Source: Escherichia phage W115. From it: a DNA stretch of 64,000 nt. The translations under genes were made by a program, and so were the position numbers. How positions within the stretch are numbered: position 1 is the stretch's first letter; the number at the start of each line of letters is the position of its first letter. The notes under the pieces were generated by a model. It saw only the letters and a list, made by a program, of their open reading frames with translations. It did not search any database and was not told where the DNA came from. Below, one piece after another: positions 15,671 to 28,585 of the stretch. The stretch lies in sequence record ON286974. One strand, written 5' to 3'.

Positions 15671-15676
15671 CAACTT

Positions 15677-15856: not shown

Positions 15857-15888
15857 GTTTGATTCTCCTTTCGTTTCGGTATGTGTGC

Positions 15889-15918: not shown

Positions 15919-15925
15919 CAATTTT

Positions 15926-16444
15926 TTAGTTATTTTTTAATTGCTCATCTTGCAATAGGGCAATCACATGCTGGCGATGTTCTTCCGATTGAGGCACACC
16001 GAAAAAGTTTGTTTTGTAGAAATACTCTAATCGGTCTTCTCGTGTGCTCTCTTCCATCATGATCGCGGGTAGTCCGAGATTTCGGAAACGTCGCTTTTCT
16101 GCTGGCGTAAAATCACTGTAATACAACATAGAATCATCATTACCAGCAATGCTAAACTCATCCTTCATAAAGGAGAATATTGCGTTTAAACGCTGTTTAC
16201 CGTCCACGATTTCGATCTCATAGCGAGAGCCATCATCAATCTTAGCCATTGCGATAGCACCAACCGGAAAATCATTAATCAGGTTTTCGATAAACATACG
16301 TTTGTTTTCGGTGTCCCATACCAAAGGACGCTGATAATCTGGGTTCATGTTGATATAGCCATCTTCTAACCATGCATCATAAACAGAGATGACAAAGTTT
16401 TTAGTATTGGTATAGTAACGGCGTTTAGGCGTTAAACGGTTCAT
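15926..16444 (-). CDS. DUF262/ParB-like N-terminal domain protein
   Basis: Motifs NPDYQRPLVWD and IVDGKQRL typical of the DUF262 (GmrSD N-terminal / ParB-like) fold; start re-assigned to ATG 16444 with AGGAGA RBS, 1 nt after upstream stop. Confidence 0.5.
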   Translation of the reverse strand: MNRLTPKRRYYTNTKNFVISVYDAWLEDGYINMNPDYQRPLVWDTENKRMFIENLINDFPVGAIAMAKIDDGSRYEIEIVDGKQRLNAIFSFMKDEFSIAGNDDSMLYYSDFTPAEKRRFRNLGLPAIMMEESTREDRLEYFYKTNFFGVPQSEEHRQHVIALLQDEQLKNN

Positions 16445-16445
16445 G

Positions 16446-16778
16446 TTATAGTCTCCTGAATGGATCATCACGTAAATCAATATCTTTTAAGAACTCATCC
16501 CATGAATGGCGGATATTGTTCTTAATTCTCCAGATAAGAGCAGGGATTGAACGCTCTCCCATCTGGAAGTATGGATCATATGATCCGTATGCCCAATATG
16601 CTACTACAATTCCACAATCAGCGCAATAGTATTCTATTTCACTTGCTGGCGACCAAAGTCCATCAATATGATCGGTGATCTTGCTTTCGATGTTATGGCT
16701 ATGACAATCAGGGCAACGGATGCAATGACCTTGTTTATCGTAATTTGACGTTAGCGAATACTTAAACAATCTCATCAT
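16446..16778 (-). CDS. Cys/His-rich zinc-ribbon protein
   Basis: 110 aa with CIRCPDCHSH ... CADCG; ATGA start/stop overlap with upstream gene. Confidence 0.5.
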   Translation of the reverse strand: MMRLFKYSLTSNYDKQGHCIRCPDCHSHNIESKITDHIDGLWSPASEIEYYCADCGIVVAYWAYGSYDPYFQMGERSIPALIWRIKNNIRHSWDEFLKDIDLRDDPFRRL

Positions 16779-17491
16779 AGATCCTTATTGGCTTCAAATA
16801 CTGCCTTTGCGAATCCTCGCGGGGTAAGTGACCTGATAGTCTTTGTTCTGGTTCCTTTCCCGCCTAGCTTAGAATGCTGTTTACTGTACCCTTTATTAAT
16901 CTGCAACGGTTTCTTTTCTGGCATTATAAAGCCTTGTCCGGTCCATAAGCAAGTCTTTTTTGGGTACATATCACGGGCGGCAATATACTCAGGAAACGTA
17001 GGATGTTTATCATCTTCCGGCAAATAACCGCCATATTCCCACGGATGGAACATGTAATCAGGCTTACGCCACATGCTAGAGATAACGCTTACAGGATTCT
17101 CTATCATGTATGGAACTCCTAGCCATTCACCCAAATAAGCGGTTATTTTAGCTGCCCGTACATCATGAACTTGAATCAATGGTCCTTGTTCTCGTTTCTT
17201 TCGTTCAAAGTGCGCAGCGCCACTAACAGCTAAATTGGTGCACGGTGGGAATGCAAAGATAATATCCGGTTTCCCCCATTCAAGGTCCATTGCTCTTTCC
17301 AGCCAGTTCAAATCAATCCAGGTGTTTACATAGGTAATGTTTTGATGTTCAAATCTGGTATTATATTTTTTGTATGTACCGTGGTCGGCGTCATCCGCAT
17401 TAAAGCAGACTACCTTATGACCTGCTTTAGCCCATTCTAGCCCCATTATCCCCGATCCGTCAAAGTTGCAGAATATTAATTTTTGTTTCAT
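16775..17491 (-). CDS. compact cytosine-C5 methyltransferase-like protein (putative)
   Basis: 238 aa; motif I-like FCNFDGSGIMG, ADDADHGTYKKYN, motif IV-like FAFPPC, ENP (ENV-like), C-terminal RSLTPRGFAKA resembling motif IX; no obvious target-recognition domain. Confidence 0.45.
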   Translation of the reverse strand: MKQKLIFCNFDGSGIMGLEWAKAGHKVVCFNADDADHGTYKKYNTRFEHQNITYVNTWIDLNWLERAMDLEWGKPDIIFAFPPCTNLAVSGAAHFERKKREQGPLIQVHDVRAAKITAYLGEWLGVPYMIENPVSVISSMWRKPDYMFHPWEYGGYLPEDDKHPTFPEYIAARDMYPKKTCLWTGQGFIMPEKKPLQINKGYSKQHSKLGGKGTRTKTIRSLTPRGFAKAVFEANKDL

Positions 17492-17733
17492 ATACGCCCC
17501 TTTAATCCAACACAGATTTTAGAAGGTTCTTTGCCGTGCCACATTAAGTAAATTCCGTTAGTACGGCCTTGTTTTGTATATGATTCTTTTCTGATCTTCT
17601 TATAGTGTCGTGCTTCCTCAGCCGATTGTTTAGAATGTCGATCATAAAGGAAGAGGAACAAAGGCCACCCATTAGCGACCTTAATGCAGTTATTCAAAAA
17701 TTCCTTATTTCGTTTAATTAATTTTCTTTTCAC
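17488..17733 (-). CDS. hypothetical basic protein (81 aa)
   Basis: Track ORF; GTG start overlapping upstream stop (GTGA); part of the coupled operon. Confidence 0.4.
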   Translation of the reverse strand: MKRKLIKRNKEFLNNCIKVANGWPLFLFLYDRHSKQSAEEARHYKKIRKESYTKQGRTNGIYLMWHGKEPSKICVGLKGRI

Positions 17734-17981
17734 GCTGCCCCCATTGGTTTGATAGTAACAGAATCTAAAAGACCTTTGTTAGCCAGTTCGCGGCAAGTTT
17801 TCAGATCCGCAACTTCCCAGCCAGCCGCAATCAGGTTATCAATCAGGCTGTTAGCAATTTCTTCGCTCATGAAAGAGCACTGTTTGCCGATGGTGTAGCG
17901 TACACGCTGTAATTTCAGTTTACGGAAGCCTTTAACGTTCAGGTCTTTAGCGATTTTCTTTGCGGTTTCGATGTTAGCCAT
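17730..17981 (-). CDS. hypothetical protein (83 aa), first gene of the coupled operon
   Basis: Track ORF with AGGAGA RBS directly downstream of a PeSL promoter. Confidence 0.5.
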   Translation of the reverse strand: MANIETAKKIAKDLNVKGFRKLKLQRVRYTIGKQCSFMSEEIANSLIDNLIAAGWEVADLKTCRELANKGLLDSVTIKPMGAA

Positions 17982-18021
17982 TGTTTGATTCTCCTAAGTG
18001 GTATCTCGTCTTGATGGTTGT

Positions 18022-18050
18022 ATTGTAGGGGAGTTATCCTCCCCTGTCAA
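18022..18050 (-). promoter_or_regulatory. PeSL-type early promoter
   Basis: TTGACA, palindrome AGGGGAGGATAACTCCCCT, TACAAT on minus strand. Confidence 0.55.
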
Positions 18051-18064
18051 CACTTTTTATAAAA

Positions 18065-18232
18065 TTATTTGTTAATTTCTGGTGCGTTGCTCGGATAGTA
18101 ACCTTCTTTAACACCCAGATATTTTGCAACCATCCCTACAATCTTCTGTGCTACTACAATGTCAAATTTCAGATAATCTTCGCCGTGGGTTTCAATGATA
18201 TATGCTTCACATGCTGCTTTAGTCTCGAACAT
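18065..18232 (-). CDS. hypothetical 55-aa protein, copy 1 of a duplicated gene
   Basis: MFETKAACEAYIIETHGEDYLKFDIVVAQKIVGMVAKYLGVKEGYYPSNAPEINK; near-identical DNA copy at 21852..22019. Confidence 0.5.
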   Translation of the reverse strand: MFETKAACEAYIIETHGEDYLKFDIVVAQKIVGMVAKYLGVKEGYYPSNAPEINK

Positions 18233-18265
18233 TTTGATTCTCCTATTTCGTTTCGGTATGTGTGT

Positions 18266-18295
18266 AGTATAGGGGATCTCCCGATCCCCGTCAAC
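18266..18295 (-). promoter_or_regulatory. PeSL-type early promoter
   Basis: TTGACG, palindrome GGGGATCGGGAGATCCCC, TATACT. Confidence 0.5.
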
Positions 18296-18308
18296 AACTT
18301 TTTTAAAA

Positions 18309-18590
18309 TTATTCGTGATTAGTTTCGATGTTATACATTTTGCACCAGTTCAGCCAATCACCCAGATCCTGATAGTTGATGCTTTTATCTGCTGCCATCG
18401 TTTTTGTCTTGATACCCATATGTGCGTTATGAGTAAGCATTTTTACAGTGAACTCAATTTTATCGCCTTTAGCTTTAACATCAACCAGTTTGGTCCACTG
18501 GCTACCAGCGCCGCGAATGTTCATACCAACGATGTTTCCGATGTATGCTTCTTTGTTTTTCAGGATTTCGGTTGCTTTGATGAATTTCAT
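18309..18590 (-). CDS. hypothetical protein (93 aa)
   Basis: Track ORF with GGAGAA RBS and upstream PeSL promoter. Confidence 0.5.
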   Translation of the reverse strand: MKFIKATEILKNKEAYIGNIVGMNIRGAGSQWTKLVDVKAKGDKIEFTVKMLTHNAHMGIKTKTMAADKSINYQDLGDWLNWCKMYNIETNHE

Positions 18591-18663
18591 TTTTGATTCT
18601 CCAGTTCGTTTCGGTATGGGTGTATTATGCTATGTTCTTACTTTGGTGTCAACAACTTTTTTT

Positions 18664-18933
18664 TTAGATATTTTCAGAAATAAATTTTAAAACTTGACGT
18701 AAATGTTTCTCATCTTTGATAGTTGCCGGAAGTTCTTCTTTTACTTCCTGTGCAAGATAGATATTTCCGTTCCAAGTGAAAGATCCGTCTTCGTTTACTC
18801 GATAGCTGAACATCCACTCGCAATCATTTTCGATTTCATATACACACAGAAGGGTGTAATCGTTAAAGCTATTGATTTCAATGTCGAAGCCGTGACGTTT
18901 TGCAAAGTTGGTAGTGGTTTTAGTCAGTGCCAT
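18664..18933 (-). CDS. hypothetical protein (89 aa)
   Basis: Track ORF with AGGAGAA RBS and upstream promoter cassette. Confidence 0.5.
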   Translation of the reverse strand: MALTKTTTNFAKRHGFDIEINSFNDYTLLCVYEIENDCEWMFSYRVNEDGSFTWNGNIYLAQEVKEELPATIKDEKHLRQVLKFISENI

Positions 18934-19024
18934 TGTTTGATTCTCCTAAGTGGTATCTCGTTTCGATGTGTGTATTATGCTATGGGCGTGATCTGGTGTC
19001 AACAACTTTTTTAAATTTTTGGAA

Positions 19025-19050
19025 ATAAAAAGCCGACACTAAGGTCGGCA
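19025..19050 (-). terminator. rho-independent terminator (gccgac-actaag-gtcggc family)
   Basis: Hairpin plus U-run on minus transcript; same hairpin recurs at 19529-19554. Confidence 0.55.
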
Positions 19051-19053
19051 CAT

Positions 19054-19308
19054 TTAAAAATTCTTGCTATATATGCAAGCCTCATAATCTAGAGGATGAC
19101 CGCCAATCCTACCAGGCTTAATATTCCAACCGCATCGATATTTGCTGACCATGCTAACCGTTTCGGTTCTTAGAGCATTTCTTTGCAAATCATACCCCCT
19201 AAATTCTTGTCTATAAGGACAGTCCGCTTTGCAAGTTGGTGGTTCTACGTCATTTAGCGGGTCAGAAGCAGTTGGCTTTATTATCAATTCTTTGTTTGCA
19301 ATAATCAT
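19054..19308 (-). CDS. hypothetical Cys-rich protein (84 aa)
   Basis: Start re-assigned to ATG 19308 (MIIANKELI...); four Cys. Confidence 0.4.
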   Translation of the reverse strand: MIIANKELIIKPTASDPLNDVEPPTCKADCPYRQEFRGYDLQRNALRTETVSMVSKYRCGWNIKPGRIGGHPLDYEACIYSKNF

Positions 19309-19441
19309 AAGCACATCCCATTGAAGACAATTTAACATCTTCGCAATAAGTGTTGAATCCGTCAAATACAATCACTTCGTATTTGACTCCATCGGCGATA
19401 GCTTTTACTTTATACCATCCATGCTTGTATAAAATCTTCAT
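19262..19441 (-). CDS. hypothetical Cys-containing protein (59 aa)
   Basis: Start re-assigned to ATG 19441 after GAGGGAAA RBS; overlaps next gene. Confidence 0.4.
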   Translation of the reverse strand: MKILYKHGWYKVKAIADGVKYEVIVFDGFNTYCEDVKLSSMGCAYDYCKQRIDNKANCF

Positions 19442-19528
19442 CTTTATTTCCCTCAATCTCGTTTCGATGTGTGTATTATGCTATAGGCTAGACCAGGTTG
19501 TCAACAACTTTTTTAAAATTTTATGCAA

Positions 19529-19554
19529 TAAAAAAGCCGACACTAAGGTCGGCT
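19529..19554 (-). terminator. rho-independent terminator (second copy of gccgac-actaag-gtcggc hairpin)
   Basis: Identical stem to 19032-19049 with U-run. Confidence 0.55.
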
Positions 19555-19561
19555 AATAAAA

Positions 19562-19870
19562 TCATTTAGACAAATAATCTTTCAGTGCAATCCGGTCGGC
19601 ATGTTCCGGCGTTACGTCAATCGCAATCACTTTAACTCGTGCTTTCTTGCGACCTGGGTTTTCTCGTAACCAGTGCTCATGACCGTGAACATTTTTATAC
19701 TGCGATGCTTCTTCGAAGGTACGGATCGGACCTGGGTAATCAGCGTAAAGGATCTCTAGATCTTCGGTGATGTAAAAATATACATCGTAATTGCTGTTCT
19801 CTAGTTTAAGCAGAGACTTTCGGAACATTGGGAGATTTTCGCGGGTAAATTCAAAGATATTATCTTTCAT
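19562..19870 (-). CDS. HxHW/VIAVDV small-protein family member A
   Basis: 102 aa; YFYITEDLEILYADY ... HGHEHW ... VIAIDV. Confidence 0.5.
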   Translation of the reverse strand: MKDNIFEFTRENLPMFRKSLLKLENSNYDVYFYITEDLEILYADYPGPIRTFEEASQYKNVHGHEHWLRENPGRKKARVKVIAIDVTPEHADRIALKDYLSK

Positions 19871-19894
19871 AGTATTATCCTCAATAGTTGGATG

Positions 19895-19916
19895 AAAAGG
19901 GGGGCTTAACGCCCCG
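19895..19916 (-). terminator. rho-independent terminator (ggggc-ttaac-gcccc family)
   Basis: Same hairpin core as 15372-15386. Confidence 0.45.
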
Positions 19917-19920
19917 TATA

Positions 19921-20208
19921 TTAAAACAGTCCTTCCTGTACACCGTAGTAGAGTTCATCGCTGATAATTTCATTAATGCGACGGTGTGCATATTCCTGAT
20001 TTGCGAAGTTATCAGCAAGTTCTACTTTAGTTTCTCCGTCATGAGTCCATTTAGTGATAACTTTACCATCTGCAAATTTGAAGTTGAACTCTTTAGCTAC
20101 TGCATCGCGTACCAGACGTGCGAACTTGTTATTACGGATTGCATTATCGGTTTCGTGTGCAGCGTGAGCGAATTTGTTAACTTTCAGAGTGATAGTAATG
20201 TATGCCAT
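19921..20208 (-). CDS. hypothetical protein (95 aa), paralog of 23218..23529
   Basis: Shares RLVRDAVAKEFNFK / REVRKALAKEFNTK segment with the 23218 gene. Confidence 0.5.
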   Translation of the reverse strand: MAYITITLKVNKFAHAAHETDNAIRNNKFARLVRDAVAKEFNFKFADGKVITKWTHDGETKVELADNFANQEYAHRRINEIISDELYYGVQEGLF

Positions 20209-20289
20209 AATTTGATTCTCCTAGTTAGAAAGTGTATCTCGTTTCGATGGGTGTATTATGCTATACACCCTCTCGCGTGTCAACACTTT

Positions 20290-20568
20290 TTATAAAATAA
20301 TTTTTTGATATTTTTCTATGATGTTTGTGTAATCCACATCAACCGCTATCACCGTTGCTTCGAATCCACCGTTTAGCCAATGGCTATGGTCATGATCGTG
20401 AAAGAAACCAAGACCAGTACGAAGACCTTCTTTATATTCGGCGCGTACATTTAGATCATCATCGATAAACAGATAAAACCATGAATTTTTACTAGGATTG
20501 ATGATACAACCTTTCAGATTAGGGAGAATATCACGACTAAGAATAAACTTATCACCTACTTTGAACAT
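20290..20568 (-). CDS. HxHW/VIAVDV small-protein family member B
   Basis: FYLFIDDDLNV ... HDHDHSHW ... VIAVDV; start re-assigned to ATG 20568 (GAGGA RBS). Confidence 0.5.
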   Translation of the reverse strand: MFKVGDKFILSRDILPNLKGCIINPSKNSWFYLFIDDDLNVRAEYKEGLRTGLGFFHDHDHSHWLNGGFEATVIAVDVDYTNIIEKYQKIIL

Positions 20569-20572
20569 AATA

Positions 20573-20893
20573 TTAGTCCTCATTTATAAGGTCAAACCAA
20601 TTGTTTTTCGCATAATGCTTAATGCGTGCTTGATCTGCTTCCGCTGGTGATAGATTCCATGCAACCACTACAACTTCTGACGCATCGTCATCCGTTTCTG
20701 ATACCCAATGATTGTGATTCATACAGTTATTTGCGATCGAGTGAGCAAATGATTTCATCACTGGAGACGTATAATCATAGTAACGGATTTTCAGATTTTC
20801 ATCAACGTACAAATAGATCGTATAAGGTTTATATTCAGTAACCAGTAACAGACAGTTACGCAATTCTGGGAAAATCTTTTTAGTTAATTTCAT
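20573..20893 (-). CDS. HxHW/VIAVDV small-protein family member C (divergent)
   Basis: IYLYVDENLKI ... NHNHW ... VVVVAW; start re-assigned to ATG 20893. Confidence 0.45.
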   Translation of the reverse strand: MKLTKKIFPELRNCLLLVTEYKPYTIYLYVDENLKIRYYDYTSPVMKSFAHSIANNCMNHNHWVSETDDDASEVVVVAWNLSPAEADQARIKHYAKNNWFDLINED

Positions 20894-20894
20894 T

Positions 20895-21113
20895 TTATAA
20901 TCCTCGGTCGCGGCTATAGTACACGGTACGCCATACAATTTCATGTTTCGTGTCGCTCCAGCACACGATCTCATTTACTCTTAAATCTTTGTTATCAACA
21001 AAAGATGAACATTGTGACGCTTCTTTCATCATTTTATCTGCTGTTTTCTCATCAAATACAGCACAGATTTCTTTATACACTCGATAATCTTTGAATTGAC
21101 TCTGAATACCCAT
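20895..21113 (-). CDS. hypothetical protein, paralog of 21073..21336
   Basis: Shared pattern KxYxxIxxV...AxKMMxxASxCxSF with the next gene; start re-assigned to internal ATG. Confidence 0.4.
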   Translation of the reverse strand: MGIQSQFKDYRVYKEICAVFDEKTADKMMKEASQCSSFVDNKDLRVNEIVCWSDTKHEIVWRTVYYSRDRGL

Positions 21114-21336
21114 AATTAACACCATTCCAACCAATTGTTTTTGAGAAAACGTTTATCCACTGTTGAGTGTAACATGTTTCTTTCCATGATACAATACGAG
21201 TAGAATAATGGTTTTTGTTTCCAGAAAAGGACGGGCATTTTGATGCATCTTCCATCATCTTTTCGGCGAACTCTGGTGCGTATACTCGCAGGATCTGTTG
21301 ATATGCTTTGTATTCTTTAAATTTGCTCATAATCAT
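21073..21336 (-). CDS. hypothetical protein, paralog of 20895..21113
   Basis: 87 aa; same motif pattern. Confidence 0.4.
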   Translation of the reverse strand: MIMSKFKEYKAYQQILRVYAPEFAEKMMEDASKCPSFSGNKNHYSTRIVSWKETCYTQQWINVFSKTIGWNGVNYGYSESIQRLSSV

Positions 21337-21595
21337 TCACTACCTTATCAGCTTCTTTTGTTGTTTTTACATCAACTGCGATAACTCGTAAAGGTTCGTC
21401 ATGGTTCCACCAGTGGTCATGAATATCAGCTTGTGATTTATCACCAAAGGAATCACGAATATCATTTTTACATTTATAGCTAATGTGACCTTCATAGTCA
21501 ACATAAAGGTAATTATCGAAAATCGGCGTTTTTAAGATCATACCGAAAAATCTTTCTTTGTGTGTCTTATCCAGCGTTGCAGTAATTCGCATCAT
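21317..21595 (-). CDS. HxHW/VIAVDV small-protein family member D
   Basis: YLYVDYEGHISY ... HDHWW ... VIAVDV. Confidence 0.5.
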   Translation of the reverse strand: MMRITATLDKTHKERFFGMILKTPIFDNYLYVDYEGHISYKCKNDIRDSFGDKSQADIHDHWWNHDEPLRVIAVDVKTTKEADKVVNDYEQI

Positions 21596-21607
21596 AATAT
21601 ATTCCTC

Positions 21608-21787
21608 TTAGAAAGGGATGGTCATTTCTTGAGCTTGTACATTCTCGTTAGGATTAAACTTCATCCAGCCGATATTGTCTACCAGCATATGCACATTTTT
21701 ATCATATCCTACGTGAGTAGTCAACACTAAATGTGCTTTATCTTCAATGATGAGTTCCATGTACTTCTGAACTTCGATAGCTTTCAT
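21608..21787 (-). CDS. hypothetical small protein (59 aa)
   Basis: Unlisted ORF MKAIEVQKYMELIIEDKAHLVLTTHVGYDKNVHMLVDNIGW... behind a PeSL promoter. Confidence 0.4.
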   Translation of the reverse strand: MKAIEVQKYMELIIEDKAHLVLTTHVGYDKNVHMLVDNIGWMKFNPNENVQAQEMTIPF

Positions 21788-21851
21788 TTTGATTCTCCGT
21801 TTGTTGTCTTGATGGGAGTATCTTACTACTCCCTTTAATCATTGTCAACTA

Positions 21852-22019
21852 TTATTTGTTAATTTCTGGTGCGTTGCTCGGATAGTAACCTTCTTTAACA
21901 CCAAGATATTTTGCAACCATTCCGGTGATCTTCTGTGCTACTACGATATCGAATTTCAGGTAGTCTTCACCGTGGTTTGCTACAATGTACGCTTCGCATT
22001 CTGCTTTAGTCTGGAACAT
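21852..22019 (-). CDS. hypothetical 55-aa protein, copy 2 of duplicated gene
   Basis: MFQTKAECEAYIVANHGEDYLKFDIVVAQKITGMVAKYLGVKEGYYPSNAPEINK; track ORF extends upstream through the promoter. Confidence 0.5.
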   Translation of the reverse strand: MFQTKAECEAYIVANHGEDYLKFDIVVAQKITGMVAKYLGVKEGYYPSNAPEINK

Positions 22020-22053
22020 TTTTGATTCTCCTATATCTCGTTGGTATGTGTGC

Positions 22054-22082
22054 ATTATAGGGGATCGGTGATCCCCTGTCAA
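22054..22082 (-). promoter_or_regulatory. PeSL-type early promoter
   Basis: TTGACA, palindrome GGGGATCACCGATCCCC, TATAAT. Confidence 0.6.
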
Positions 22083-22087
22083 CAACT

Positions 22088-22381
22088 TTATAATGCTTTA
22101 TATGCGTATTTCATAAATTTGTCTGCCACTTCATTGGCATGTTCAGATTCTACGCCTGATTCGAGAACAATAGCTAGGTCGGTTTCGTCATTCCCGCCGT
22201 ACCAATGATTTGATGTTCGATTTTTTTCAATTGGAAATTGGTCACTTTTATCTGTGCGACAAAATACATCTAAATGCTCGTCGATGTAAAAGATCCAATC
22301 TTCATAAAGAATAACGGTATTAGCAAGATTTTTATTGCCTTCAACGAAAGGTTCGGCTACAAACAAATTAGTATGTTCCAT
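22088..22381 (-). CDS. HxHW/VIAVDV small-protein family member E (divergent)
   Basis: IFYIDEHLDVF ... SNHW ... LAIVLE; start re-assigned to ATG 22381. Confidence 0.4.
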   Translation of the reverse strand: MEHTNLFVAEPFVEGNKNLANTVILYEDWIFYIDEHLDVFCRTDKSDQFPIEKNRTSNHWYGGNDETDLAIVLESGVESEHANEVADKFMKYAYKAL

Positions 22382-22397
22382 AGTATTTTCCTCAAAA

Positions 22398-22574
22398 TTA
22401 TACAGCTTCGTAAACTTCCCAATGTCCAACACCAGCACGCTTAACGAAAAGGTTTTCTTTGATGTTATTCATAAACGTCTGGATGGATTTAATGCGGTTT
22501 GAAGGTTTCCATTCTTCGTTTGCATTGCGTCGATACATCATAACATTACCAGTTCGCTTATATTCAGCAACCAT
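22398..22574 (-). CDS. hypothetical small protein (58 aa)
   Basis: Start re-assigned to ATG 22574 after GAGGATAA RBS. Confidence 0.35.
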   Translation of the reverse strand: MVAEYKRTGNVMMYRRNANEEWKPSNRIKSIQTFMNNIKENLFVKRAGVGHWEVYEAV

Positions 22575-22646
22575 TTTAAGACCACACATAATATTATCCT
22601 CAATTTGTGGGAGAGTATTACCCCTCCCAATGATTGTTATGTTATA

Positions 22647-22949
22647 TCACACAAAATGGCGTGTCAATGCTTCTTTTGCGGTTCCGCTAAGATTCTCGAT
22701 CTCTCCTGGCATAACATCAACCGCAAGAACTTCTACAACATCCTCTGATCCTAACCAGTGAGTATGACCTTTGTAGAACTTGATATCCCATTTATCGCTA
22801 TCGCTAGCCCACCACACATCACCGTCGATAAAGTTGATGTAAAGCACACTACGCCACATTGAATTAATTACTTTCAATACTGCGCCTTTCATCTCTTCCA
22901 CGGTGTGGTCTTCCATTTTGAAGACCTCGCCTACCTTAACTTTTGCCAT
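22647..22949 (-). CDS. HxHW/VIAVDV small-protein family member F
   Basis: LYINFIDGDVWW ... GHTHW ... VLAVDV. Confidence 0.5.
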   Translation of the reverse strand: MAKVKVGEVFKMEDHTVEEMKGAVLKVINSMWRSVLYINFIDGDVWWASDSDKWDIKFYKGHTHWLGSEDVVEVLAVDVMPGEIENLSGTAKEALTRHFV

Positions 22950-22966
22950 TTAGTCACCTCTCTTTA

Positions 22967-23146
22967 TTACATAACAATCACGCCAGCCGTTGAAAGTTGA
23001 TGTTTCAACTGAGCATTTTCTGCTACCGTCAAATCAATGATTTCTTGTGACGCTGCAATCATATAGCCATTGGTGATATTGTTTTGCATCAGTTCAATGG
23101 TTTCTTCGTTGTAGCGGATTTTAGCGATGATTTCGTTGAAGTTCAT
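22967..23146 (-). CDS. hypothetical small protein (59 aa)
   Basis: True start MNFNEIIAKIRYNEE...; upstream MLTGDHRSP... of the track ORF is promoter sequence. Confidence 0.4.
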   Translation of the reverse strand: MNFNEIIAKIRYNEETIELMQNNITNGYMIAASQEIIDLTVAENAQLKHQLSTAGVIVM

Positions 23147-23180
23147 AATTGATTCTCCTAGTTCGTTTCGGTATGTGTGT

Positions 23181-23209
23181 AGTATAGGGGATCGGTGATC
23201 CCCTGTCAA
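23181..23209 (-). promoter_or_regulatory. PeSL-type early promoter
   Basis: TTGACA, palindrome GGGGATCACCGATCCCC, TATACT. Confidence 0.55.
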
Positions 23210-23217
23210 CAACTTTT

Positions 23218-23529
23218 TTAAAGTTTTTCCATGATAACGGTCATAATTATATCTTCTGCGCGAGCGGTCAGATTATCAGCGTCAGCATGTGGGCGGTTGG
23301 TTGTTACAGAGATAACACCGTTGCGCACTGGTTTGATGTTGATATCAAGATGATCCGCGAAACGTTCGCCAGTTACAGAATGAATTTTGGTGTTAAATTC
23401 TTTTGCCAGTGCCTTGCGAACTTCACGAATCAGGGTAGCGTTTTTCAGTTGGTTCTCCGCGCTCATGGTCTTCTGGGTGTTCATGGTTCCGTCGAAGTCA
23501 ATCATTGGCAGCGTTACGATGTATTTCAT
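23218..23529 (-). CDS. hypothetical protein (103 aa), paralog of 19921..20208
   Basis: True start MKYIVTLPM...; shared REVRKALAKEFN segment. Confidence 0.45.
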   Translation of the reverse strand: MKYIVTLPMIDFDGTMNTQKTMSAENQLKNATLIREVRKALAKEFNTKIHSVTGERFADHLDINIKPVRNGVISVTTNRPHADADNLTARAEDIIMTVIMEKL

Positions 23530-23615
23530 TTTTGATTCTCCGTTTAAGAAAGTGTGTTTCGTTTTGATGTGTGTAGTATAGGGGATCACCGATCCCCTGT
23601 CAACAACTTTTTGAA

Positions 23616-24092
23616 TTATTTTTCTTGATGCTCGCGATCGTACTTTTCGAAATAAAATTCTACTGGCTGGTCGTGGATTGACAGCAAGCCAAAGCGTTTA
23701 GCCGCTCGCAATCCCATATTGCGCTGAATGTACTTCTGGAAGTTCTCGCGTATACACTTACGCCAGGATTCTAAGCCCATGCAGCTTTTATAAAGATTGC
23801 ATTGCACACATGCCGGATTCATGTTATCAAGTATATCATGCTCCGGTTTATGCATTCCTACAACCTTATACTTCCACGATCCATCATCATTACGGGCAAT
23901 TCGTCCATTTTCATCATAGACAACCTTTGAGCGTCGTAATACTGGTTTGATATGGTCTGCGTGCCAGCGATCCCCTAGTTCCTCGCCACAATAGGCACAA
24001 CGTCCACCGTATTTCATTTTCAGGATCTGACGTTGCTCTTTCTTTGACAATTTTTTAGGTTTAGGGGCTTTCGCCCCTTCATTATCACACAT
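23616..24092 (-). CDS. HNH endonuclease
   Basis: 158 aa; CAYCGEEL...HADHIKP...NMNPACVQCNLYK (HNH with Zn-binding Cys pairs); immediately downstream of DNA ligase. Confidence 0.65.
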   Translation of the reverse strand: MCDNEGAKAPKPKKLSKKEQRQILKMKYGGRCAYCGEELGDRWHADHIKPVLRRSKVVYDENGRIARNDDGSWKYKVVGMHKPEHDILDNMNPACVQCNLYKSCMGLESWRKCIRENFQKYIQRNMGLRAAKRFGLLSIHDQPVEFYFEKYDREHQEK

Positions 24093-25587
24093 CGAATACC
24101 TCTTTTACTGTATTTGCAGCGGTCTTGTCGTAGCGAATACGTTTGATGATTGGGAGAAATAAAGAGAACTCCGGTTCATCTTCTTTACGTGATTTGCTGC
24201 GGATATACCCGTTGCATGTCATCTCAATAACTTTTCCAATCAGGTTATGACGGTCAGCCCATAACATTTCTCGGTCGAGTTCATTTCGACGATCGAACGG
24301 AATTACACGTTCAGTACCATCATCACCTTTTTCGGTTGTAGTGTCGGTTAATCCCGATCCGGTGTTAGTCATCATTCGTCCGCACGCACTACGGACAGTA
24401 AAACCGCCTACCTTATTGGGGTCTTTACTATGCGGATATACATCAACAATTTCCGCGTCGAAGTCAATCACTTCTTTAAATTTAACCTGATCTTTACTAC
24501 GGCGATCTTCAAATACACCATGTAAATTTTTAAGGATAATACCTTCTAATCCCATGTTTACATAGCGATGATATACTTCGCGAGCTTCGTCGATGTTGTT
24601 AACTACAGTATTTTCGATTATCTGAACACGAGGATCGTTAAGTTCTTCAACAATCTGTTTTAGTTCTTCGAATCGATCTTTATATTGCTTCGTTGCTTTC
24701 TCGTTTCCGTAATACACATCACGGTCGATAACATCCCAGACAGTGTAAACAATACATTGGGCTTCTTCTTTTGGAATAGTTCCTTTAAGTGATTTGTTGA
24801 GTATACCATTTCCGGTCTGACGATCTGCAACAACGGATTCTTTCACTGCTTCCGCTACTGGCGTTAATGGCATTTCCTCTTCTTCAAATATCCATGACAG
24901 AGTACCATCATAAACGCTTTCAACGAAGTTCTGCGCTGGTGTTTGCGAAAGGGTAGGCATATATACCAATTCGCCATCTAGAACAATTCCACGGCCTCGT
25001 AGACGCTCTAAAACCGCAAACAAATCATCAAGCCCTTGATAGGTATTACCTGAGCGGGTATAGATTGCTAATGTTTCCCCGTCAATATCAGCCATACCAC
25101 GAGCGCCATCGCTTTTAAGTTGTGCATACGCCGGATACTTGATATTAGCAATAGTCTTATCAGAACATGACGATGCAAGGTGGCACGGTTGCTGAGGGAT
25201 CAGTTTCTTCCATACCTTGTTTGCGGTGGTAGCGGAACAACCGCATTCCAGATCACGATTCAGGACCATCATTGCAACTTTAGCATCATCCTCTGACAAG
25301 CAAGTCAGAGTATCGGTAACTAGCTGTAATGCTGCATTACCAGTTACTTGACGCGTGGCAAGTTTATTTTTAAAGACCTGTAATGCACCGGATAAAGACA
25401 ATACAGACGAATAGCGAGACGGTTTATCGTATTTCTTTACGCCAAACGTAACCTGTTTGCAATATGCCAGATAAAAGCATTCTTTCAGCGTTTCATTGCT
25501 CGCGGATTCTTTCAGAATCTTTTCTTTCAGCGATGTTTTGTCTGTTGCTGCAAGCTGGTTAATGATATTAAGAATTGACATTTTCAC
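24085..25587 (-). CDS. 30: ATP-dependent DNA ligase
   Basis: 500 aa; similarity to T4 DNA ligase incl. adenylation motif KSDGAR, DGELVY, EGIILK, FKEVID. Confidence 0.85.
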   Translation of the reverse strand: MKMSILNIINQLAATDKTSLKEKILKESASNETLKECFYLAYCKQVTFGVKKYDKPSRYSSVLSLSGALQVFKNKLATRQVTGNAALQLVTDTLTCLSEDDAKVAMMVLNRDLECGCSATTANKVWKKLIPQQPCHLASSCSDKTIANIKYPAYAQLKSDGARGMADIDGETLAIYTRSGNTYQGLDDLFAVLERLRGRGIVLDGELVYMPTLSQTPAQNFVESVYDGTLSWIFEEEEMPLTPVAEAVKESVVADRQTGNGILNKSLKGTIPKEEAQCIVYTVWDVIDRDVYYGNEKATKQYKDRFEELKQIVEELNDPRVQIIENTVVNNIDEAREVYHRYVNMGLEGIILKNLHGVFEDRRSKDQVKFKEVIDFDAEIVDVYPHSKDPNKVGGFTVRSACGRMMTNTGSGLTDTTTEKGDDGTERVIPFDRRNELDREMLWADRHNLIGKVIEMTCNGYIRSKSRKEDEPEFSLFLPIIKRIRYDKTAANTVKEVFDV

Positions 25588-26047
25588 CTCGTTTTGTTAA
25601 ACGTTCACGAATATCATTGAGGATACTACAAAATTCCGATTCAGTCAATATAGTCTTTAACGGATCAGTTCCACCTATGCTATGACGTAATTTCTTATTT
25701 CCGGTAGCAAGTAATGCTTTACAAAATTCTGGGTTATTCCGTGCCATCGTAACAAATGCCAGATGTACCAGTCTGTAATAATGCTCACTCATTCGATGAA
25801 TCGGGCGACCCTGAAAATATAACATGTGATTCTCAATCTTTTCAGTTCTTCCGGTTCTTTTTGCTTTGCCACCGTGCATCAAAAAGATTTCTCTTTGTCT
25901 CTGAGGGTTCTTAAATCTTAGCCCCTGTAAAAATCCTTCTGTGCTGTTAATATCGCAGCCAAATAAACGGAATGGTCTTTTATTGAAATTACTCAATTCA
26001 CCCGATGGATAAGGTCCACCCGCATAGATATCAATTTCAGAAGTCAT
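25568..26047 (-). CDS. NADAR (YbiA/DUF1768)-like protein, putative ADP-ribose processing enzyme
   Basis: 159 aa; IDIYAGGPYPSGELSNF...PF...STEGFLQGLRF matches the N-terminal NADAR signature (SNF...STEH.FQ..KF). Confidence 0.45.
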   Translation of the reverse strand: MTSEIDIYAGGPYPSGELSNFNKRPFRLFGCDINSTEGFLQGLRFKNPQRQREIFLMHGGKAKRTGRTEKIENHMLYFQGRPIHRMSEHYYRLVHLAFVTMARNNPEFCKALLATGNKKLRHSIGGTDPLKTILTESEFCSILNDIRERLTKRGENVNS

Positions 26048-26244: not shown

Positions 26245-26272
26245 AAAATATAGGCGGGATTATTTCCCGCCG
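26245..26272 (-). terminator. rho-independent terminator downstream of gene 31
   Basis: Hairpin ggcggga-ttatt-tcccgcc with U-run. Confidence 0.6.
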
Positions 26273-26282
26273 TTTAAAATCA

Positions 26283-26606
26283 TTAACCGTAAACTACCAC
26301 AATATTCTGTTTGTGCGTTACAGTCCATTTCAGGTCGATCTCTTCTTCCTTCTTAACGCCGTTAATAACGTCTGGATGAGGAACTTTATTCATCTTGCCA
26401 TGTGGCAGTAGAACAGTTTTACCCAGCAATTCTTTATCTACCGTCTCGCCAATATCAATAATCTTACCTACCAGCGGAATCTCGCCCATAGTGCGCTTTT
26501 GCTCAATAATGATCCCCATAGAGCTTTTTACTTCTGTCCCTGCGCTTTCTGCTTTAGCTTCAATGATCACATAGTCACCAAGTGCTTTAGGAGTTTTAAC
26601 GGTCAT
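26283..26606 (-). CDS. 31: gp31 co-chaperonin (GroES-like)
   Basis: 107 aa; similarity to T4 gp31 (GDYVIIEA, mobile loop, VPHP). Confidence 0.75.
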   Translation of the reverse strand: MTVKTPKALGDYVIIEAKAESAGTEVKSSMGIIIEQKRTMGEIPLVGKIIDIGETVDKELLGKTVLLPHGKMNKVPHPDVINGVKKEEEIDLKWTVTHKQNIVVVYG

Positions 26607-26647: not shown

Positions 26648-26968
26648 TTATTTATAAATTTCGACGATCTGCGCTGGAGTCAGCCCGTCTACATTAATCA
26701 GACTATCAAGCCCAAAACTACGGAAACCTTCAACTGCAATTTCATATACTGGCAAAGATGTTTCTGATTCTTTACGCGGTTTTTCAACATTCGGAACTAA
26801 CCACTTTTCGTATGTTTCAAACGGCATCAGTGCCGGATCTCGCGTGGCGATCATCTCACGGACAGTACCATCTTTCTTAGTAAACTGCAAAGAGTGAGTA
26901 CCGACCGAAAACATTTTCTTTAGTGCTTCACGAAGTGCGATATTATCAACTTGTTCAGTCATTATCAA
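26648..26968 (-). CDS. hypothetical protein (106 aa)
   Basis: Track ORF between cd and gene 31. Confidence 0.4.
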   Translation of the reverse strand: MIMTEQVDNIALREALKKMFSVGTHSLQFTKKDGTVREMIATRDPALMPFETYEKWLVPNVEKPRKESETSLPVYEIAVEGFRSFGLDSLINVDGLTPAQIVEIYK

Positions 26969-27461
26969 TACCCTTCAAATCAGTCAATAATGCTTTTGGA
27001 ATACGAGTAACCGTAATGTCGGCTTTATCCAAAATATCAGCCCAATCACGCCCACCATTTCGATCATATGTGTCGCAATAGTATAGATGTTTAATACCAC
27101 TGTTTGCAATTGCTTTAGCGCAATCTGGACACGGTGAAGCAGTACACCACATACTAGCGCCTTCAATCGATACACCGCTACGGGCAGCAAACAAAATAGC
27201 ATTTAATTCAGCATGGATCTCGTTTTTCTGTGACCATGCACTATGTTCTGGTCGTTTTTCTGGGATCATTTTTCCGTCATCATCCAGCCAACCGCTTTTA
27301 TGTGCATGACAGCTACAATTTACTTGCCCTGCTGGAGTGCCATTAAATCCAGTAGAAATGATTCGCCCGTCTTTTTCGATCAGTGCGCCTACCTTCCACG
27401 AAACGCATTTAGAGTTCTTTGCGATTAGATAAGCGATCTGCATGTAAGTTTGTGACAACAT
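26955..27461 (-). CDS. cd: dCMP deaminase
   Basis: 168 aa; zinc-binding HAE ... PCPDC cytidine/deoxycytidylate deaminase signature. Confidence 0.8.
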   Translation of the reverse strand: MLSQTYMQIAYLIAKNSKCVSWKVGALIEKDGRIISTGFNGTPAGQVNCSCHAHKSGWLDDDGKMIPEKRPEHSAWSQKNEIHAELNAILFAARSGVSIEGASMWCTASPCPDCAKAIANSGIKHLYYCDTYDRNGGRDWADILDKADITVTRIPKALLTDLKGIDND

Positions 27462-27482: not shown

Positions 27483-27686
27483 TTAACCGTATACGCGAAA
27501 GTATTCTACTGATCCGTCGCTATACTGTTTTACATTGAATGTATTCACGCCATGATCATTGCTCATAATGACATACACACTGCGACGCTCATCACTAAAC
27601 GGGTTAACTGGTGCTGGTTCAATTTCAACATTAAAACCACGTTTAGCAAGTGCTTCGCCTAATTGCTTGAGTTTATCGGTAAACAT
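27483..27686 (-). CDS. hypothetical small protein (67 aa)
   Basis: Track ORF downstream of pseT. Confidence 0.4.
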   Translation of the reverse strand: MFTDKLKQLGEALAKRGFNVEIEPAPVNPFSDERRSVYVIMSNDHGVNTFNVKQYSDGSVEYFRVYG

Positions 27687-28585
27687 TAAAAGTCTCCGTA
27701 GTTAACCTGAAAACATTCTACACCAATTGAGCGATACATGTCAACCACTTGATCACGGTCATCTACTGCCAAAACAACATGATATCGCGGTGCAATTTCA
27801 GAGAAGAAAATCTCTTTCTTTACTTCATGATCAGGACGACGATCATTAGTTTCACGTTGAAAGTGATCACTAGGTTCAATACCCTGTTCACGCAACCATT
27901 GCAGAGTATCTTCTTCGCAAACATCCTCACGACCTGAGCATGTAATGATACGATAGCCATTATCACGATACAGTTTAAGCATTTCGATCACTTGCGGACG
28001 TGGTTTATCTTCTTTGACCTTTGTCCAGTCAAACGGATGACGACCGCCCTTATCCGCTAATGTTCCATCAATATCAAAGATCACTGCCTTTGGCAGCATA
28101 GTATTCGGTTTGTATACTTCTTGACCCATATATTCCTGCATCAGATAAAATTGGTTGCGCAAATGAGAAAGTGGAATTGCTTTCTCGCCGCGATAGAAAT
28201 TACGTTTCTTTAGTGTCTCAAATGATTCATTGAACACTTGTTCAGTATACACCGCGTTAAATTCTTTTGCAAGTTCTTTGTAGAATACACGATGTTTTTC
28301 TTTCAGGTTGGTATCGGAGATAATGATACTCAATCCGCGTGATAGAGTCTCACGAGCAATCATTCTCTGAATAGACTCTACCAGCTTTTCTTTTTCCTTA
28401 GTATACTTGTATTTCAAATGTGAGTAAACACCAAACAACATAAGACGAAGATCATCACGATTCACATTACGATAATTACTAAACCGTTTACATGTTTCCA
28501 TCGCCCATGTAGTTTTACCGGACCCAGAACAACCAACGGTTAAAATCACTTCACATTTCGGCATTATTTCTCCTTCGGTTTGCAC
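27686..28585 (-). CDS. pseT: polynucleotide 5'-kinase / 3'-phosphatase
   Basis: 299 aa; Walker A GCSGSGKTT at N-terminus and HAD motif DIDGTLADK, as in T4 Pnk. Confidence 0.85.
   Translation of the reverse strand: MQTEGEIMPKCEVILTVGCSGSGKTTWAMETCKRFSNYRNVNRDDLRLMLFGVYSHLKYKYTKEKEKLVESIQRMIARETLSRGLSIIISDTNLKEKHRVFYKELAKEFNAVYTEQVFNESFETLKKRNFYRGEKAIPLSHLRNQFYLMQEYMGQEVYKPNTMLPKAVIFDIDGTLADKGGRHPFDWTKVKEDKPRPQVIEMLKLYRDNGYRIITCSGREDVCEEDTLQWLREQGIEPSDHFQRETNDRRPDHEVKKEIFFSEIAPRYHVVLAVDDRDQVVDMYRSIGVECFQVNYGDF

What the first reader, a model, noticed from the sequence alone, without database searches (positions are those of the whole stretch)
25568..26047. NADAR-like protein next to DNA ligase: possible reversal of DNA ADP-ribosylation
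The 159-aa ORF carries the NADAR/YbiA signature (GELSNF ... PF ... STEGFLQGLRF). NADAR enzymes have been shown to remove ADP-ribose from guanine in DNA modified by DarT-type toxins. Its start overlaps the ligase gene, placing it in a DNA-repair context. The same genome segment encodes two Alt-family ADP-ribosyltransferases, so both sides of ADP-ribose chemistry are present.
Basis: partly seen in the sequence, partly recalled or inferred. Interest (0 to 1): 0.5.

Follow-up and report, generated by a model that had tools for sequence, protein, structure and literature searches.

The report
Phage AdfN (gp30.3) anti-DarT NADAR enzyme

Summary

T4 gp30.3 was renamed AdfN in 2025. It hydrolyses ADP-ribose from guanine in DNA in vitro and is necessary and sufficient for T-even phages to escape DarTG1.

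Corrections:
- The 3' end of the gene, not its start, overlaps the ligase start, by 14 nt.
- The ligase adjacency is inherited T4 gene order (pseT-cd-31-30.3-30-alt), not evidence of a repair pathway.
- The two Alt-type ADP-ribosyltransferases are real but lie about 10 kb away, and I found no published link to NADAR substrates.

One point of difference: the phosphate-binding Lys (T4 K43) is Arg44 here, as in only 6 of 169 aligned family domains. In E. coli C7 DarG1, K95R kept in vitro activity but lost in vivo rescue.

The parts
25568..26047 (-). adfN / gene 30.3: 159-aa core-only NADAR domain of the phage type (His in the last strand)
25937..25939 (-). Codon for Glu37, equivalent to T4 AdfN E36, E. 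coli C7 DarG1 E88 and Phytophthora NADAR E43 (contacts the distal ribose)
   Evidence: Alignment with T4. Glu in 161 of 169 aligned family domains. Role taken from PMC11543638 and PMC11825919.
25916..25918 (-). Codon for Arg44, at the position of the phosphate-coordinating Lys (T4 K43, E. coli C7 K95, Phytophthora K50); a rare natural Lys-to-Arg variant
   Evidence: Lys in 158 and Arg in 6 of 169 aligned domains. Among intact domains Arg occurs only in the RB49 clade (window, P0001, P0002) and P0144. The K95R phenotype in DarG1 is from PMC11543638.
25682..25684 (-). Codon for His122, the residue that marks phage NADARs (Glu in YbiA-type, Asp in DarG1-type)
   Evidence: Invariant in A1 and A2. 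His in 157 of 169 domains. It directly follows the last predicted strand, 119-121. Family rule from PMC11543638 and PMC11125620.
25568..25640 (-). Region encoding the intact C-terminal helix (residues 136-157), the part lost in the inactive RB69 allele
   Evidence: AF2 helix 136-157. The alignment reaches the last residue of T4 AdfN. The RB69 truncation of 15 residues reduces activity (PMC11825919).
25568..25581 (-). 14-nt overlap between the end of adfN and the ATG of DNA ligase gene 30; the ligase ribosome-binding site GAGGTG (about 25587-25592) lies inside adfN
   Evidence: Sequence read directly. Same boundaries are annotated in phage kaaroe.
26037..26201 (-). ORF 31.-1 (54 aa), whose stop overlaps the adfN start by 11 nt; restricted to Krischvirus; context only
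   Evidence: Sequence. PHROG 15277. tblastn finds it in only 59 Krischvirus-type records. No similarity to T4 gp30.4.
24085..25581 (-). Gene 30, ATP-dependent DNA ligase (498 aa from the ATG); neighbour by synteny, not part of the mechanism
   Evidence: PF01068 E 2.8e-22. NCBIfam ligase models. Annotation in kaaroe.
26253..26271 (-). GC-rich hairpin followed by a T-rich tail, downstream of gene 31 and upstream of the 31.-1/adfN/30 block (terminator-like; consensus match only)
   Evidence: sequence.
13274..15325 (-). Alt orthologue (683 aa), an ADP-ribosyltransferase; context only
   Evidence: PF03496 E 2e-09. 27% identical to T4 Alt over the full length, E 1e-61.
12371..13195 (-). Short paralogue with an ART domain only (274 aa); context only
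   Evidence: PF03496 E 5.9e-16. 36% identical to the Alt catalytic core, E 9e-16.

Best explanation
The ORF is the Krischvirus (RB49-type) orthologue of T4 adfN (gene 30.3). It is a stand-alone, core-only NADAR ADP-ribosylglycohydrolase.

Proposed mechanism:
1. On a host carrying DarTG1, infection activates the DarT1 toxin, which attaches ADP-ribose to guanine N2 in phage DNA and blocks replication.
2. The phage enzyme, made during infection, binds the ADP-ribose moiety. Glu37 and His122 flank the distal ribose, and Arg44 (Lys in nearly all relatives) holds the diphosphate.
3. It hydrolyses the ribose-guanine N-glycosidic bond, releasing free ADP-ribose and restoring an intact guanine. Replication can then proceed.

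The enzyme acts as an orphan antitoxin mimic. No DarT partner and no ligation step are involved.

Shown here: family membership, fold, conservation of the catalytic positions, an intact C-terminus and synteny. Shown by others for T4 AdfN only: enzymatic activity, guanine specificity and anti-DarTG1 function. Inferred: that these properties carry over to this 38%-identical protein, and the roles assigned to individual residues.
For: - PF08010: 132.5 bits, E 1.2e-38.
- 100% identical to RB49 gp30.3. The window is 99% identical to Krischvirus phage kaaroe over 12 kb.
- 38% identity to T4 gp30.3 over residues 3-150, E 2e-30.
- Gene order shared with T4 and an Acinetobacter T4-like phage: pseT, cd, 31, 30.3, 30, alt.
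- hhalign against E. coli YbiA: 92.6% probability, E 4.6e-7, covering residues 14-152.
- AF2 model with pLDDT 94.3 and pTM 0.89. Foldseek finds only YbiA and Phytophthora NADAR-ADPr.
- E37 and H122 are present and are the majority residue in the family. The C-terminal helix is intact.
- Literature: T4 AdfN removes ADP-ribose from DarT1-modified DNA; E36A and K43A impair it; the gene is necessary and sufficient against DarTG1; it has no effect on DarTG2 (thymidine) (PMC11825919).
- T4 gp30.3 hydrolyses G-ADPr but not T-ADPr in vitro (PMC11125620) and not C-ADPr (PMC12945103).
- adfN is conditionally essential on DarTG1 hosts in a transposon screen.
Against: - No experiment exists for this protein or for any Krischvirus. 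Literature searches for Krischvirus or RB49 together with DarT found nothing relevant.
- Identity to the tested T4 enzyme is only 38%.
- The phosphate-binding Lys is Arg here. In E. coli C7 DarG1, K95R kept in vitro hydrolysis but failed to rescue cells from DarT1 (PMC11543638).
- T4 AdfN works fully only during T-even infection and appears to need an unidentified phage factor. Whether RB49 supplies that factor is unknown.
- The generic Pfam NADAR model is below threshold, and PADLOC and NCBIfam give no hit.
Confidence: 0.78

Rival explanations
1. The enzyme is an active NADAR hydrolase, but its main physiological substrate in RB49 infection is not DarT1-modified DNA. It could instead be guanine-ADP-ribosylated RNA, or low-molecular-weight ADP-ribose derivatives made by other host immune systems.
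For: Iyer and co-workers argued on contextual grounds that phage NADARs mostly target soluble ADPr derivatives (PMC9503650). All NADAR families tested also remove G-ADPr from RNA (PMC12945103). The Arg44 variant could alter ligand handling.
Against: The only phenotype shown for the family is anti-DarTG1, through DNA de-ADP-ribosylation. The active-site positions are otherwise those of T4 AdfN. I found no data showing a soluble substrate for the gp30.3 type.
Confidence: 0.1
2. The RB49-clade protein is an attenuated or non-protective allele. Arg44 in place of Lys lowers efficiency enough that the phage is not protected in vivo, comparable to the defective RB69 allele.
For: E. coli C7 DarG1 K95R is active in vitro but cannot rescue cells from DarT1 (PMC11543638). 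T4 AdfN K43A gives only partial rescue. Arg is rare at this position, in 6 of 169 domains.
Against: The protein is at least 95% identical in all 59 close records. A 69%-identical relative (P0002) keeps Arg, E37 and H122, which points to purifying selection on a working enzyme. Arg keeps the positive charge, and K95R is catalytically competent in vitro. The protein has no frameshift or truncation.
Confidence: 0.08
3. The protein reverses or tunes ADP-ribosylation made by the phage's own Alt-type transferases. This is the 'both sides of ADP-ribose chemistry' idea.
For: Two ART-domain genes lie in the same early region. Iyer and co-workers noted that NADAR genes in T4-like phages are expressed early along with ARTs.
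Against: The papers read here report NADAR activity only on nucleic-acid bases (G, and C for some families); none reports activity on protein-linked ADP-ribose. From background knowledge, not tested here, T4 Alt modifies arginine in proteins. In T4 the adfN phenotype is explained by DarT1 alone. The ART genes are 10-13 kb away, separated by about 25 ORFs.
Confidence: 0.03
4. The protein works together with the adjacent DNA ligase in a two-step DNA repair pathway. This is the 'DNA-repair context' idea.
For: The two genes overlap by 14 nt and are probably co-transcribed and translationally coupled.
Against: The hydrolysis described for NADARs removes ADP-ribose from the base and leaves no nick. 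Adjacency is not conserved: T4 has two genes between them, an Acinetobacter phage has one, and an Aeromonas phage has no ligase nearby. Short overlaps recur along this block: adfN overlaps both neighbours, and the downstream HNH ORF overlaps the ligase 3' end.
Confidence: 0.01

Closest known systems
T4 AdfN (gp30.3), anti-DarT factor NADAR; Pfam PF08010 Phage_30_3
   Same: Orthologue: 38% identity over the full length. Same core-only NADAR domain of about 150-160 aa. Same Glu (E36/E37) and the family-specific His (H123/H122). Intact C-terminal helix. Same position in the pseT-cd-31-30.3-30-alt early region of a T4-type myovirus infecting E. coli.
   Different: Arg44 replaces Lys43. Genes 30.1 and 30.2 are absent, so adfN abuts and overlaps the ligase gene. 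No internal 30.3' ORF of 40 aa or more on the coding strand. The upstream partner ORF (31.-1) is unrelated to T4 30.4. Untested experimentally.
DarG1 antitoxin NADAR of DarTG1 (E. coli C7, Geobacter/Trichlorobacter lovleyi; PDB 8BAT)
   Different: No adjacent DarT toxin gene, so it is an orphan. It lacks the N-terminal beta-beta-alpha extension proposed to bind ssDNA (159 aa against about 219 aa). It has His where DarG1 has the catalytic Asp. T4 AdfN, unlike DarG1, cannot neutralise DarT1 in uninfected cells.
E. coli YbiA (PDB 2B3W), YbiA-type NADAR / N-glycosidase of riboflavin intermediates
   Different: YbiA type has Glu in the last strand where this protein has His. YbiA has an extra N-terminal segment, is chromosomal in a LexA-controlled operon, and does not protect against DarT1 in vivo.
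AdfN(Bas32) and AdfN(Bas60), NADARs of T5-like and Vequintavirinae phages
   Same: Phage-encoded orphan NADARs that counter DarTG1 and are specific for guanine adducts.
   Different: They belong to other branches of the NADAR tree, were acquired independently, and work without phage infection, unlike the gp30.3 type.

Membership tests
Phage NADAR / gp30.3 / AdfN family (Pfam PF08010) | Match to the family profile above the curated threshold | tested here: met
   132.5 bits against a cut-off of 36, E 1.2e-38, covering profile positions 2-138 of 138. PHROG 652 E 2.5e-45.
Phage NADAR / gp30.3 / AdfN family (Pfam PF08010) | Full-length homology to T4 gp30.3 and a syntenic position in a T4-type genome | tested here: met
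   38% identity, E 2e-30, residues 3-150 against 2-152. Gene order pseT, cd, 31, 30.3, 30, alt.
Phage NADAR / gp30.3 / AdfN family (Pfam PF08010) | Histidine at the last-strand position that is Glu in YbiA-type and Asp in DarG1-type NADARs | tested here: met
   H122 is invariant in A1 and A2 and is His in 157 of 169 family domains. It follows predicted strand 119-121. The rule is stated in PMC11543638 and PMC11125620.
Phage NADAR / gp30.3 / AdfN family (Pfam PF08010) | Catalytic Glu (T4 E36) and, seven residues later, a basic residue that binds the ADPr phosphates (T4 K43) | tested here: met
   E37 is present. Position 44 is Arg, not Lys: the charge is kept, the residue identity is not. Lys occurs in 158 and Arg in 6 of 169 domains.
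Phage NADAR / gp30.3 / AdfN family (Pfam PF08010) | Intact C-terminal helix, whose loss inactivates the RB69 allele | tested here: met
   Predicted helix 136-157. The alignment runs to the C-terminus of T4 AdfN.
Phage NADAR / gp30.3 / AdfN family (Pfam PF08010) | Hydrolysis of guanine-ADP-ribose in DNA, and protection of the phage from DarTG1 | not testable with these tools
   Shown only for T4 AdfN. No published test of RB49 or Krischvirus was found.
NADAR superfamily (YbiA-like fold; Pfam PF08719) | Match to the generic NADAR sequence profile above the curated threshold | tested here: not met
   15.5 bits against a cut-off of 35.1, E 0.021. PF08010 is a separate Pfam model for this divergent branch. 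A family profile against YbiA gives hhalign probability 92.6%, E 4.6e-7, and hmmsearch E 0.011.
NADAR superfamily (YbiA-like fold; Pfam PF08719) | The NADAR alpha+beta fold: a helical core flanked by two small sheets | tested here: met
DarG1 antitoxin (type IV antitoxin of DarTG1) | Encoded next to a DarT1 toxin gene | tested here: not met
   The neighbours are 31.-1 and DNA ligase. The only ART-domain genes found are Alt-type (PF03496) and lie 10-13 kb away. PADLOC gives no hit for this ORF.
DarG1 antitoxin (type IV antitoxin of DarTG1) | N-terminal extension of the core fold, and catalytic Asp (E. coli C7 D171) | tested here: not met
   159 aa, with the conserved core starting at about residue 5. 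His122 sits at the equivalent position. The features are described in PMC11543638.
YbiA-type N-glycosidase | Conserved Glu in the last strand | tested here: not met
   His122 instead. In the hhalign alignment the YbiA Glu-His dipeptide straddles this position.

The most novel reading that the evidence does not exclude
The RB49 clade carries a rare natural Lys-to-Arg change at the ADP-ribose phosphate-binding position (Arg44). In the bacterial antitoxin DarG1 the same change separates in vitro hydrolysis from in vivo protection. The Krischvirus enzyme may therefore have shifted substrate preference or efficiency, for example towards RNA-linked or another transferase's guanine adducts, or it may depend on a compensating phage factor. 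Comparing it with T4 AdfN could help identify the unknown T-even-specific requirement for AdfN activity.
Probability: 0.12. Interest if true: 0.35.

Novelty: already known. Interest (0 to 1): 0.15.

Why it matters
The result shows that the first-stage reader can recognise a real counter-defence enzyme from sequence alone. The biology itself is published. gp30.3 proteins were classed as His-type phage NADARs years ago, and T4 gp30.3 (AdfN) was shown in 2024-2025 to de-ADP-ribosylate guanine in DNA and to defeat DarTG1.

The practical value here is annotation. In the phage records listed the gene is mostly labelled 'hypothetical protein' (including phage kaaroe), and it could be named adfN in Krischvirus genomes.

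The only open point is the Arg44 variant. It offers a cheap natural experiment on the role of the phosphate-binding lysine, and on why AdfN of T4 works fully only in T-even infections.

Tried and rejected
1. A single-sequence phmmer search of PDB gave a hit to DltA, the D-alanine carrier-protein ligase (7vhv, E 3.8e-4). The family-profile search did not reproduce it and returned only YbiA. Both fold searches lack it. I treat it as spurious.

2. I asked whether the upstream overlapping ORF 31.-1 is a conserved partner, a candidate for the T-even factor that AdfN needs. It is restricted to 59 Krischvirus-type records and has no similarity to T4 gp30.4, which occupies the equivalent position. Rejected.

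3. I asked whether bacterial gp30.3-type NADARs sit in toxin-antitoxin-like pairs. A Falkowbacteria contig has two copies, each followed by an ORF of about 134 aa. A Clostridia MAG has one copy with a 191-aa ORF overlapping it by 4 nt. The neighbour ORFs have no Pfam match and the two Falkowbacteria ones are not similar to each other. No support, so I dropped it.

4. PADLOC and NCBIfam gave no hit for the ORF. This is uninformative, because neither library returned any model for this family.

5. The promoter and terminator consensus scans were at background level (18 promoter-like sites against 15.2 expected; 3 terminator-like against 3.8). The only feature worth noting is a clean hairpin after gene 31. 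I base no claim about transcription on them.

6. Literature searches for any test of RB49 or Krischvirus against DarTG found nothing relevant. The supplementary accession table of the AdfN paper is not held, so I could not check whether RB49 gp30.3 was in their tree.

7. I could not measure distances between residues 37, 44 and 122 in the model, because model coordinates are not exposed to the scripting tool.
Full report
**1. The observation**

The window has an ORF at 25568..26047 on the minus strand, with an ATG start, a TAA stop and 159 codons.

The ORF is certainly a gene.
- It scores 132.5 bits (E 1.2e-38; curated cut-off 36) on Pfam PF08010 'Bacteriophage protein GP30.3', across the whole profile.
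- It matches PHROG 652 at E 2.5e-45.
- tblastn finds it in 1509 phage records. In 59 of these it is at least 95% identical, including a 100% match to gp30.3 of Escherichia phage RB49.
- A profile search of 1.84 billion cluster representatives finds 1665 relatives at E <= 1e-3 and 457 at E <= 1e-30.

The surrounding 12 kb is 99% identical to Krischvirus phage kaaroe (species Krischvirus RB49), so the window is an RB49-type T4-like genome.

**2. Corrections to the observation**

It is the other end.

On the minus strand the sequence GGTGAAAATGTCAATTCTTAA reads in two frames. In one frame it gives ...G-E-N-V-N-S-stop for gp30.3. In the +1 frame it gives ATG-TCA-ATT-CTT (M-S-I-L) for the ligase. 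The overlap is 14 nt (25568..25581), and the ligase ribosome-binding site GAGGTG lies inside gp30.3. Phage kaaroe is annotated with the same boundaries.

The start of gp30.3 (ATGACTTCTGA) overlaps by 11 nt the stop of a 54-aa ORF, called 31.-1 in the RB49 record. A clean hairpin with a T-rich tail follows gene 31, just upstream of this three-gene block. Promoter and terminator scans were otherwise at background.

The positions that are nearly invariant across 169 aligned family domains are L18, S19, N20, F26, E37, Q41, K44 (Arg here), Q51, A62, K63, R85, H122, G125, L134, T135 and E138.

**3. What it is**

The protein is 38% identical to T4 gp30.3 from end to end (E 2e-30).

It occupies the same place in the conserved T4-type early region. 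In the window the order on the minus strand is pseT (27686..28585), cd (26955..27461), 31 (26283..26606), 31.-1, 30.3, 30, then a variable block and alt (13274..15325). T4 has pseT, cd, 31, rIII, 30.9-30.4, 30.3, 30.2, 30.1, 30, alt.1, alt.

The generic Pfam NADAR model is hit only weakly (15.5 bits against a cut-off of 35.1). More sensitive tests are clear.
- A profile of 14 family members finds E. coli YbiA as its only PDB sequence hit.
- hhalign of that profile against YbiA gives 92.6% probability and E 4.6e-7 over residues 14-152.
- An AlphaFold2 model built on 12 sequences has mean pLDDT 94.3 and pTM 0.89.
- Foldseek against PDB returns only YbiA (2B3W, E 3e-6) and Phytophthora NADAR bound to ADP-ribose (8BAU, E 1e-3).

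The protein is therefore a NADAR-fold domain with no extra elements.

**4. What is already known about this family**

The literature held in the library covers it fully.
- Schuller et al. 2023 (PMC11543638) showed that NADARs hydrolyse guanine-N2-ADP-ribose made by DarT1. They noted that the catalytic Glu of the YbiA type is Asp in DarT-associated NADARs and His in phage NADARs.
- A 2024 study (PMC11125620) calls the phage branch 'gp30.3 proteins'. It showed that T4 gp30.3 removes G-ADPr but not T-ADPr in vitro, and does not rescue uninfected cells from DarT1.
- Johannesman et al. 2025 (PMC11825919) mapped DarTG1 resistance of T-even phages to gene 30.3 and renamed it adfN. They showed it is necessary and sufficient for counter-defence, that E36A and K43A impair it, and that the RB69 allele, 15 residues shorter, is defective. 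The enzyme works fully only during T-even infection, for unknown reasons.
- A 2025 transposon screen independently found 30.3/adfN conditionally essential on DarTG1 hosts.
- A 2026 paper found that the T4 enzyme does not remove cytidine-ADPr.

**5. Catalytic positions in this protein**

- T4 E36 corresponds to E37 here (codon 25937-25939).
- The phage-specific His corresponds to H122 (codon 25682-25684), immediately after the last predicted strand.
- The C-terminal helix, residues 136-157, is intact and slightly longer than in T4.

The one departure is at the phosphate-binding Lys (T4 K43, E. coli C7 DarG1 K95, Phytophthora K50). Here it is Arg44 (codon 25916-25918). Across 169 aligned domains this position is Lys in 158 and Arg in 6. 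Among intact domains Arg occurs only in the RB49 clade (the window, P0001 and the 69%-identical P0002) and in one other representative.

Schuller et al. report that K95R in E. coli C7 DarG1 keeps in vitro hydrolysis but no longer rescues cells from DarT1. I take Arg44 as most likely compatible with function, for three reasons: the charge is kept, the protein is conserved within the clade, and there are no disabling lesions. It is still the one feature here that is not simply a copy of T4.

**6. Mechanism proposed**

On DarTG1 hosts, DarT1 ADP-ribosylates guanines in phage DNA and stalls replication. The phage NADAR binds the ADP-ribose. By homology with the Phytophthora co-crystal contacts, Glu37 and His122 sit around the distal ribose and Arg44 on the diphosphate. 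The enzyme cleaves the ribose-guanine bond, releasing ADP-ribose and leaving an undamaged base.

My tests establish the family, the fold and the residues. The activity and the biological role are shown for the T4 orthologue only. Their transfer to this protein, and the residue roles, are inference. Confidence is about 0.78.

**7.

*Ligase context.* The chemistry leaves no strand break, so no ligase step follows from it. Adjacency is also not conserved. T4 has 30.1 and 30.2 between the two genes. An Acinetobacter T4-like phage has a 220-aa HAD-like ORF between them. An Aeromonas Tulanevirus has the gene next to an endonuclease and nrd genes, with no ligase nearby. The tight overlap in RB49 reflects loss of the intervening genes and the usual compact packing of this block.

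*Alt genes.* ORF 13274..15325 is a full-length Alt orthologue (27% identity over 680 aa, E 1e-61). ORF 12371..13195 is a 274-aa paralogue with an ART domain only. It carries the LYRG, STS and ECE-x-LPRG motifs. Both are real, but they lie 10-13 kb away. NADAR activity has been reported only on nucleic-acid bases in the papers read here, and the T4 adfN phenotype is fully explained by DarT1. I give this link about 3%.

**8. Rivals**

- Main substrate other than DarT1-modified DNA (RNA G-ADPr or soluble ADPr derivatives, as Iyer et al. 2022 argued for phage NADARs in general): about 10%.
- Attenuated allele because of Arg44: about 8%.
- Reversal of Alt-type modification: about 3%.
- Coupled repair with the ligase: about 1%.

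**9. Membership**

The protein meets every testable criterion of the gp30.3/AdfN phage NADAR family, with the caveat that the basic residue is Arg rather than Lys.

It is not a DarG1 antitoxin: there is no adjacent DarT, no N-terminal extension, and His in place of Asp. It is not a YbiA-type enzyme: it has His in place of Glu. It works like DarG1 without being one, which is what the 'orphan antitoxin-like' label in the 2025 paper means.

**10. Things that led nowhere**

- A phmmer hit to DltA (7vhv, E 3.8e-4) was not reproduced by profile or fold searches.
- ORF 31.-1 is restricted to Krischvirus and unrelated to T4 30.4, so it is not a conserved partner.
- Bacterial chromosomal members exist, in a Falkowbacteria contig (two copies) and in a Clostridia MAG next to nucleoside-catabolism genes. 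Their downstream neighbours have no family match and are not similar to each other, so I found no evidence for a toxin partner.
- PADLOC and NCBIfam gave no hit for the ORF.
- No paper tests RB49 or any Krischvirus against DarTG.

**11. Verdict**

- Novelty: already known.
- Interest: 0.15.
- The only residual question is whether the natural Lys-to-Arg change at position 44 alters efficiency or specificity (probability about 0.12; interest if true about 0.35).

Noticed in passing
window 15326..24084 (minus-strand ORFs): An 8.7-kb variable block of about 25 small ORFs sits between alt and the ligase gene, where T4 has only alt.1. Almost all are annotated as hypothetical in the closest phage, kaaroe.
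   Followed up: partly
window 15926..16480 (-): A 184-aa protein consists only of the DUF262/GmrSD N-terminal domain (Pfam E 6e-20). It matches the PADLOC models NsnA (2e-20) and PD-T4-2_A (6e-12). This is half of a defence-type nuclease carried by a lytic phage, with no C-terminal nuclease domain in the ORF.
   Followed up: partly
window 16775..17491 (-): A 238-aa ORF annotated 'Dcm' in phage kaaroe. It has no Pfam hit at E <= 0.01 and only weak PADLOC type II methyltransferase matches.
   Followed up: no
window 21852..22085 and 22967..23212 (-): Two TTG-started mechanical ORFs begin with nearly the same peptide (MLTGDHRSPIMHTY and MLTGDHRSPILHTY). This points to a repeated intergenic sequence upstream of small early genes, possibly a reused regulatory cassette.
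   Followed up: no
window 23616..24092 (-): A 158-aa HNH endonuclease ORF (Pfam E 5e-06) whose start overlaps the 3' end of the ligase gene by 8 nt; probably a homing-type endonuclease. T4 has no such gene here.
   Followed up: no
window 12371..13195 (-): A short 274-aa paralogue of Alt with an ART domain only and an intact LYRG / STS / ECE motif set. It sits where T4 has only the decayed alt.-1/alt.-2 duplication remnants.
   Followed up: partly
L006 3089-3691 and 6001-6669; L007 6001-6462: His-type gp30.3 NADARs also occur in what look like bacterial chromosomal contigs. A Candidatus Falkowbacteria contig has two copies near gyrB and dnaX. A Clostridia MAG has one copy at the end of a deoC / PNP / cytidine deaminase / pyrimidine-nucleoside phosphorylase cluster. 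Each is followed by an uncharacterised ORF.
   Followed up: partly
proteins P0014, P0022, P0031, P0058, P0087 and others: About a third of the top 150 family representatives (55 of 161 proteins held) are 240 aa or longer, so the gp30.3 domain is fused to other regions. Several are tandem duplications in which one copy has lost the Glu or the His.
   Followed up: no
L004 4476-5138; L001 6475-7311: The gene immediately downstream of 30.3 differs between T4-like phages. The Acinetobacter phage has a weakly HAD/NT5C-like 220-aa ORF, T4 has gp30.2 (278 aa, no Pfam match), and RB49 has nothing.
   Followed up: partly
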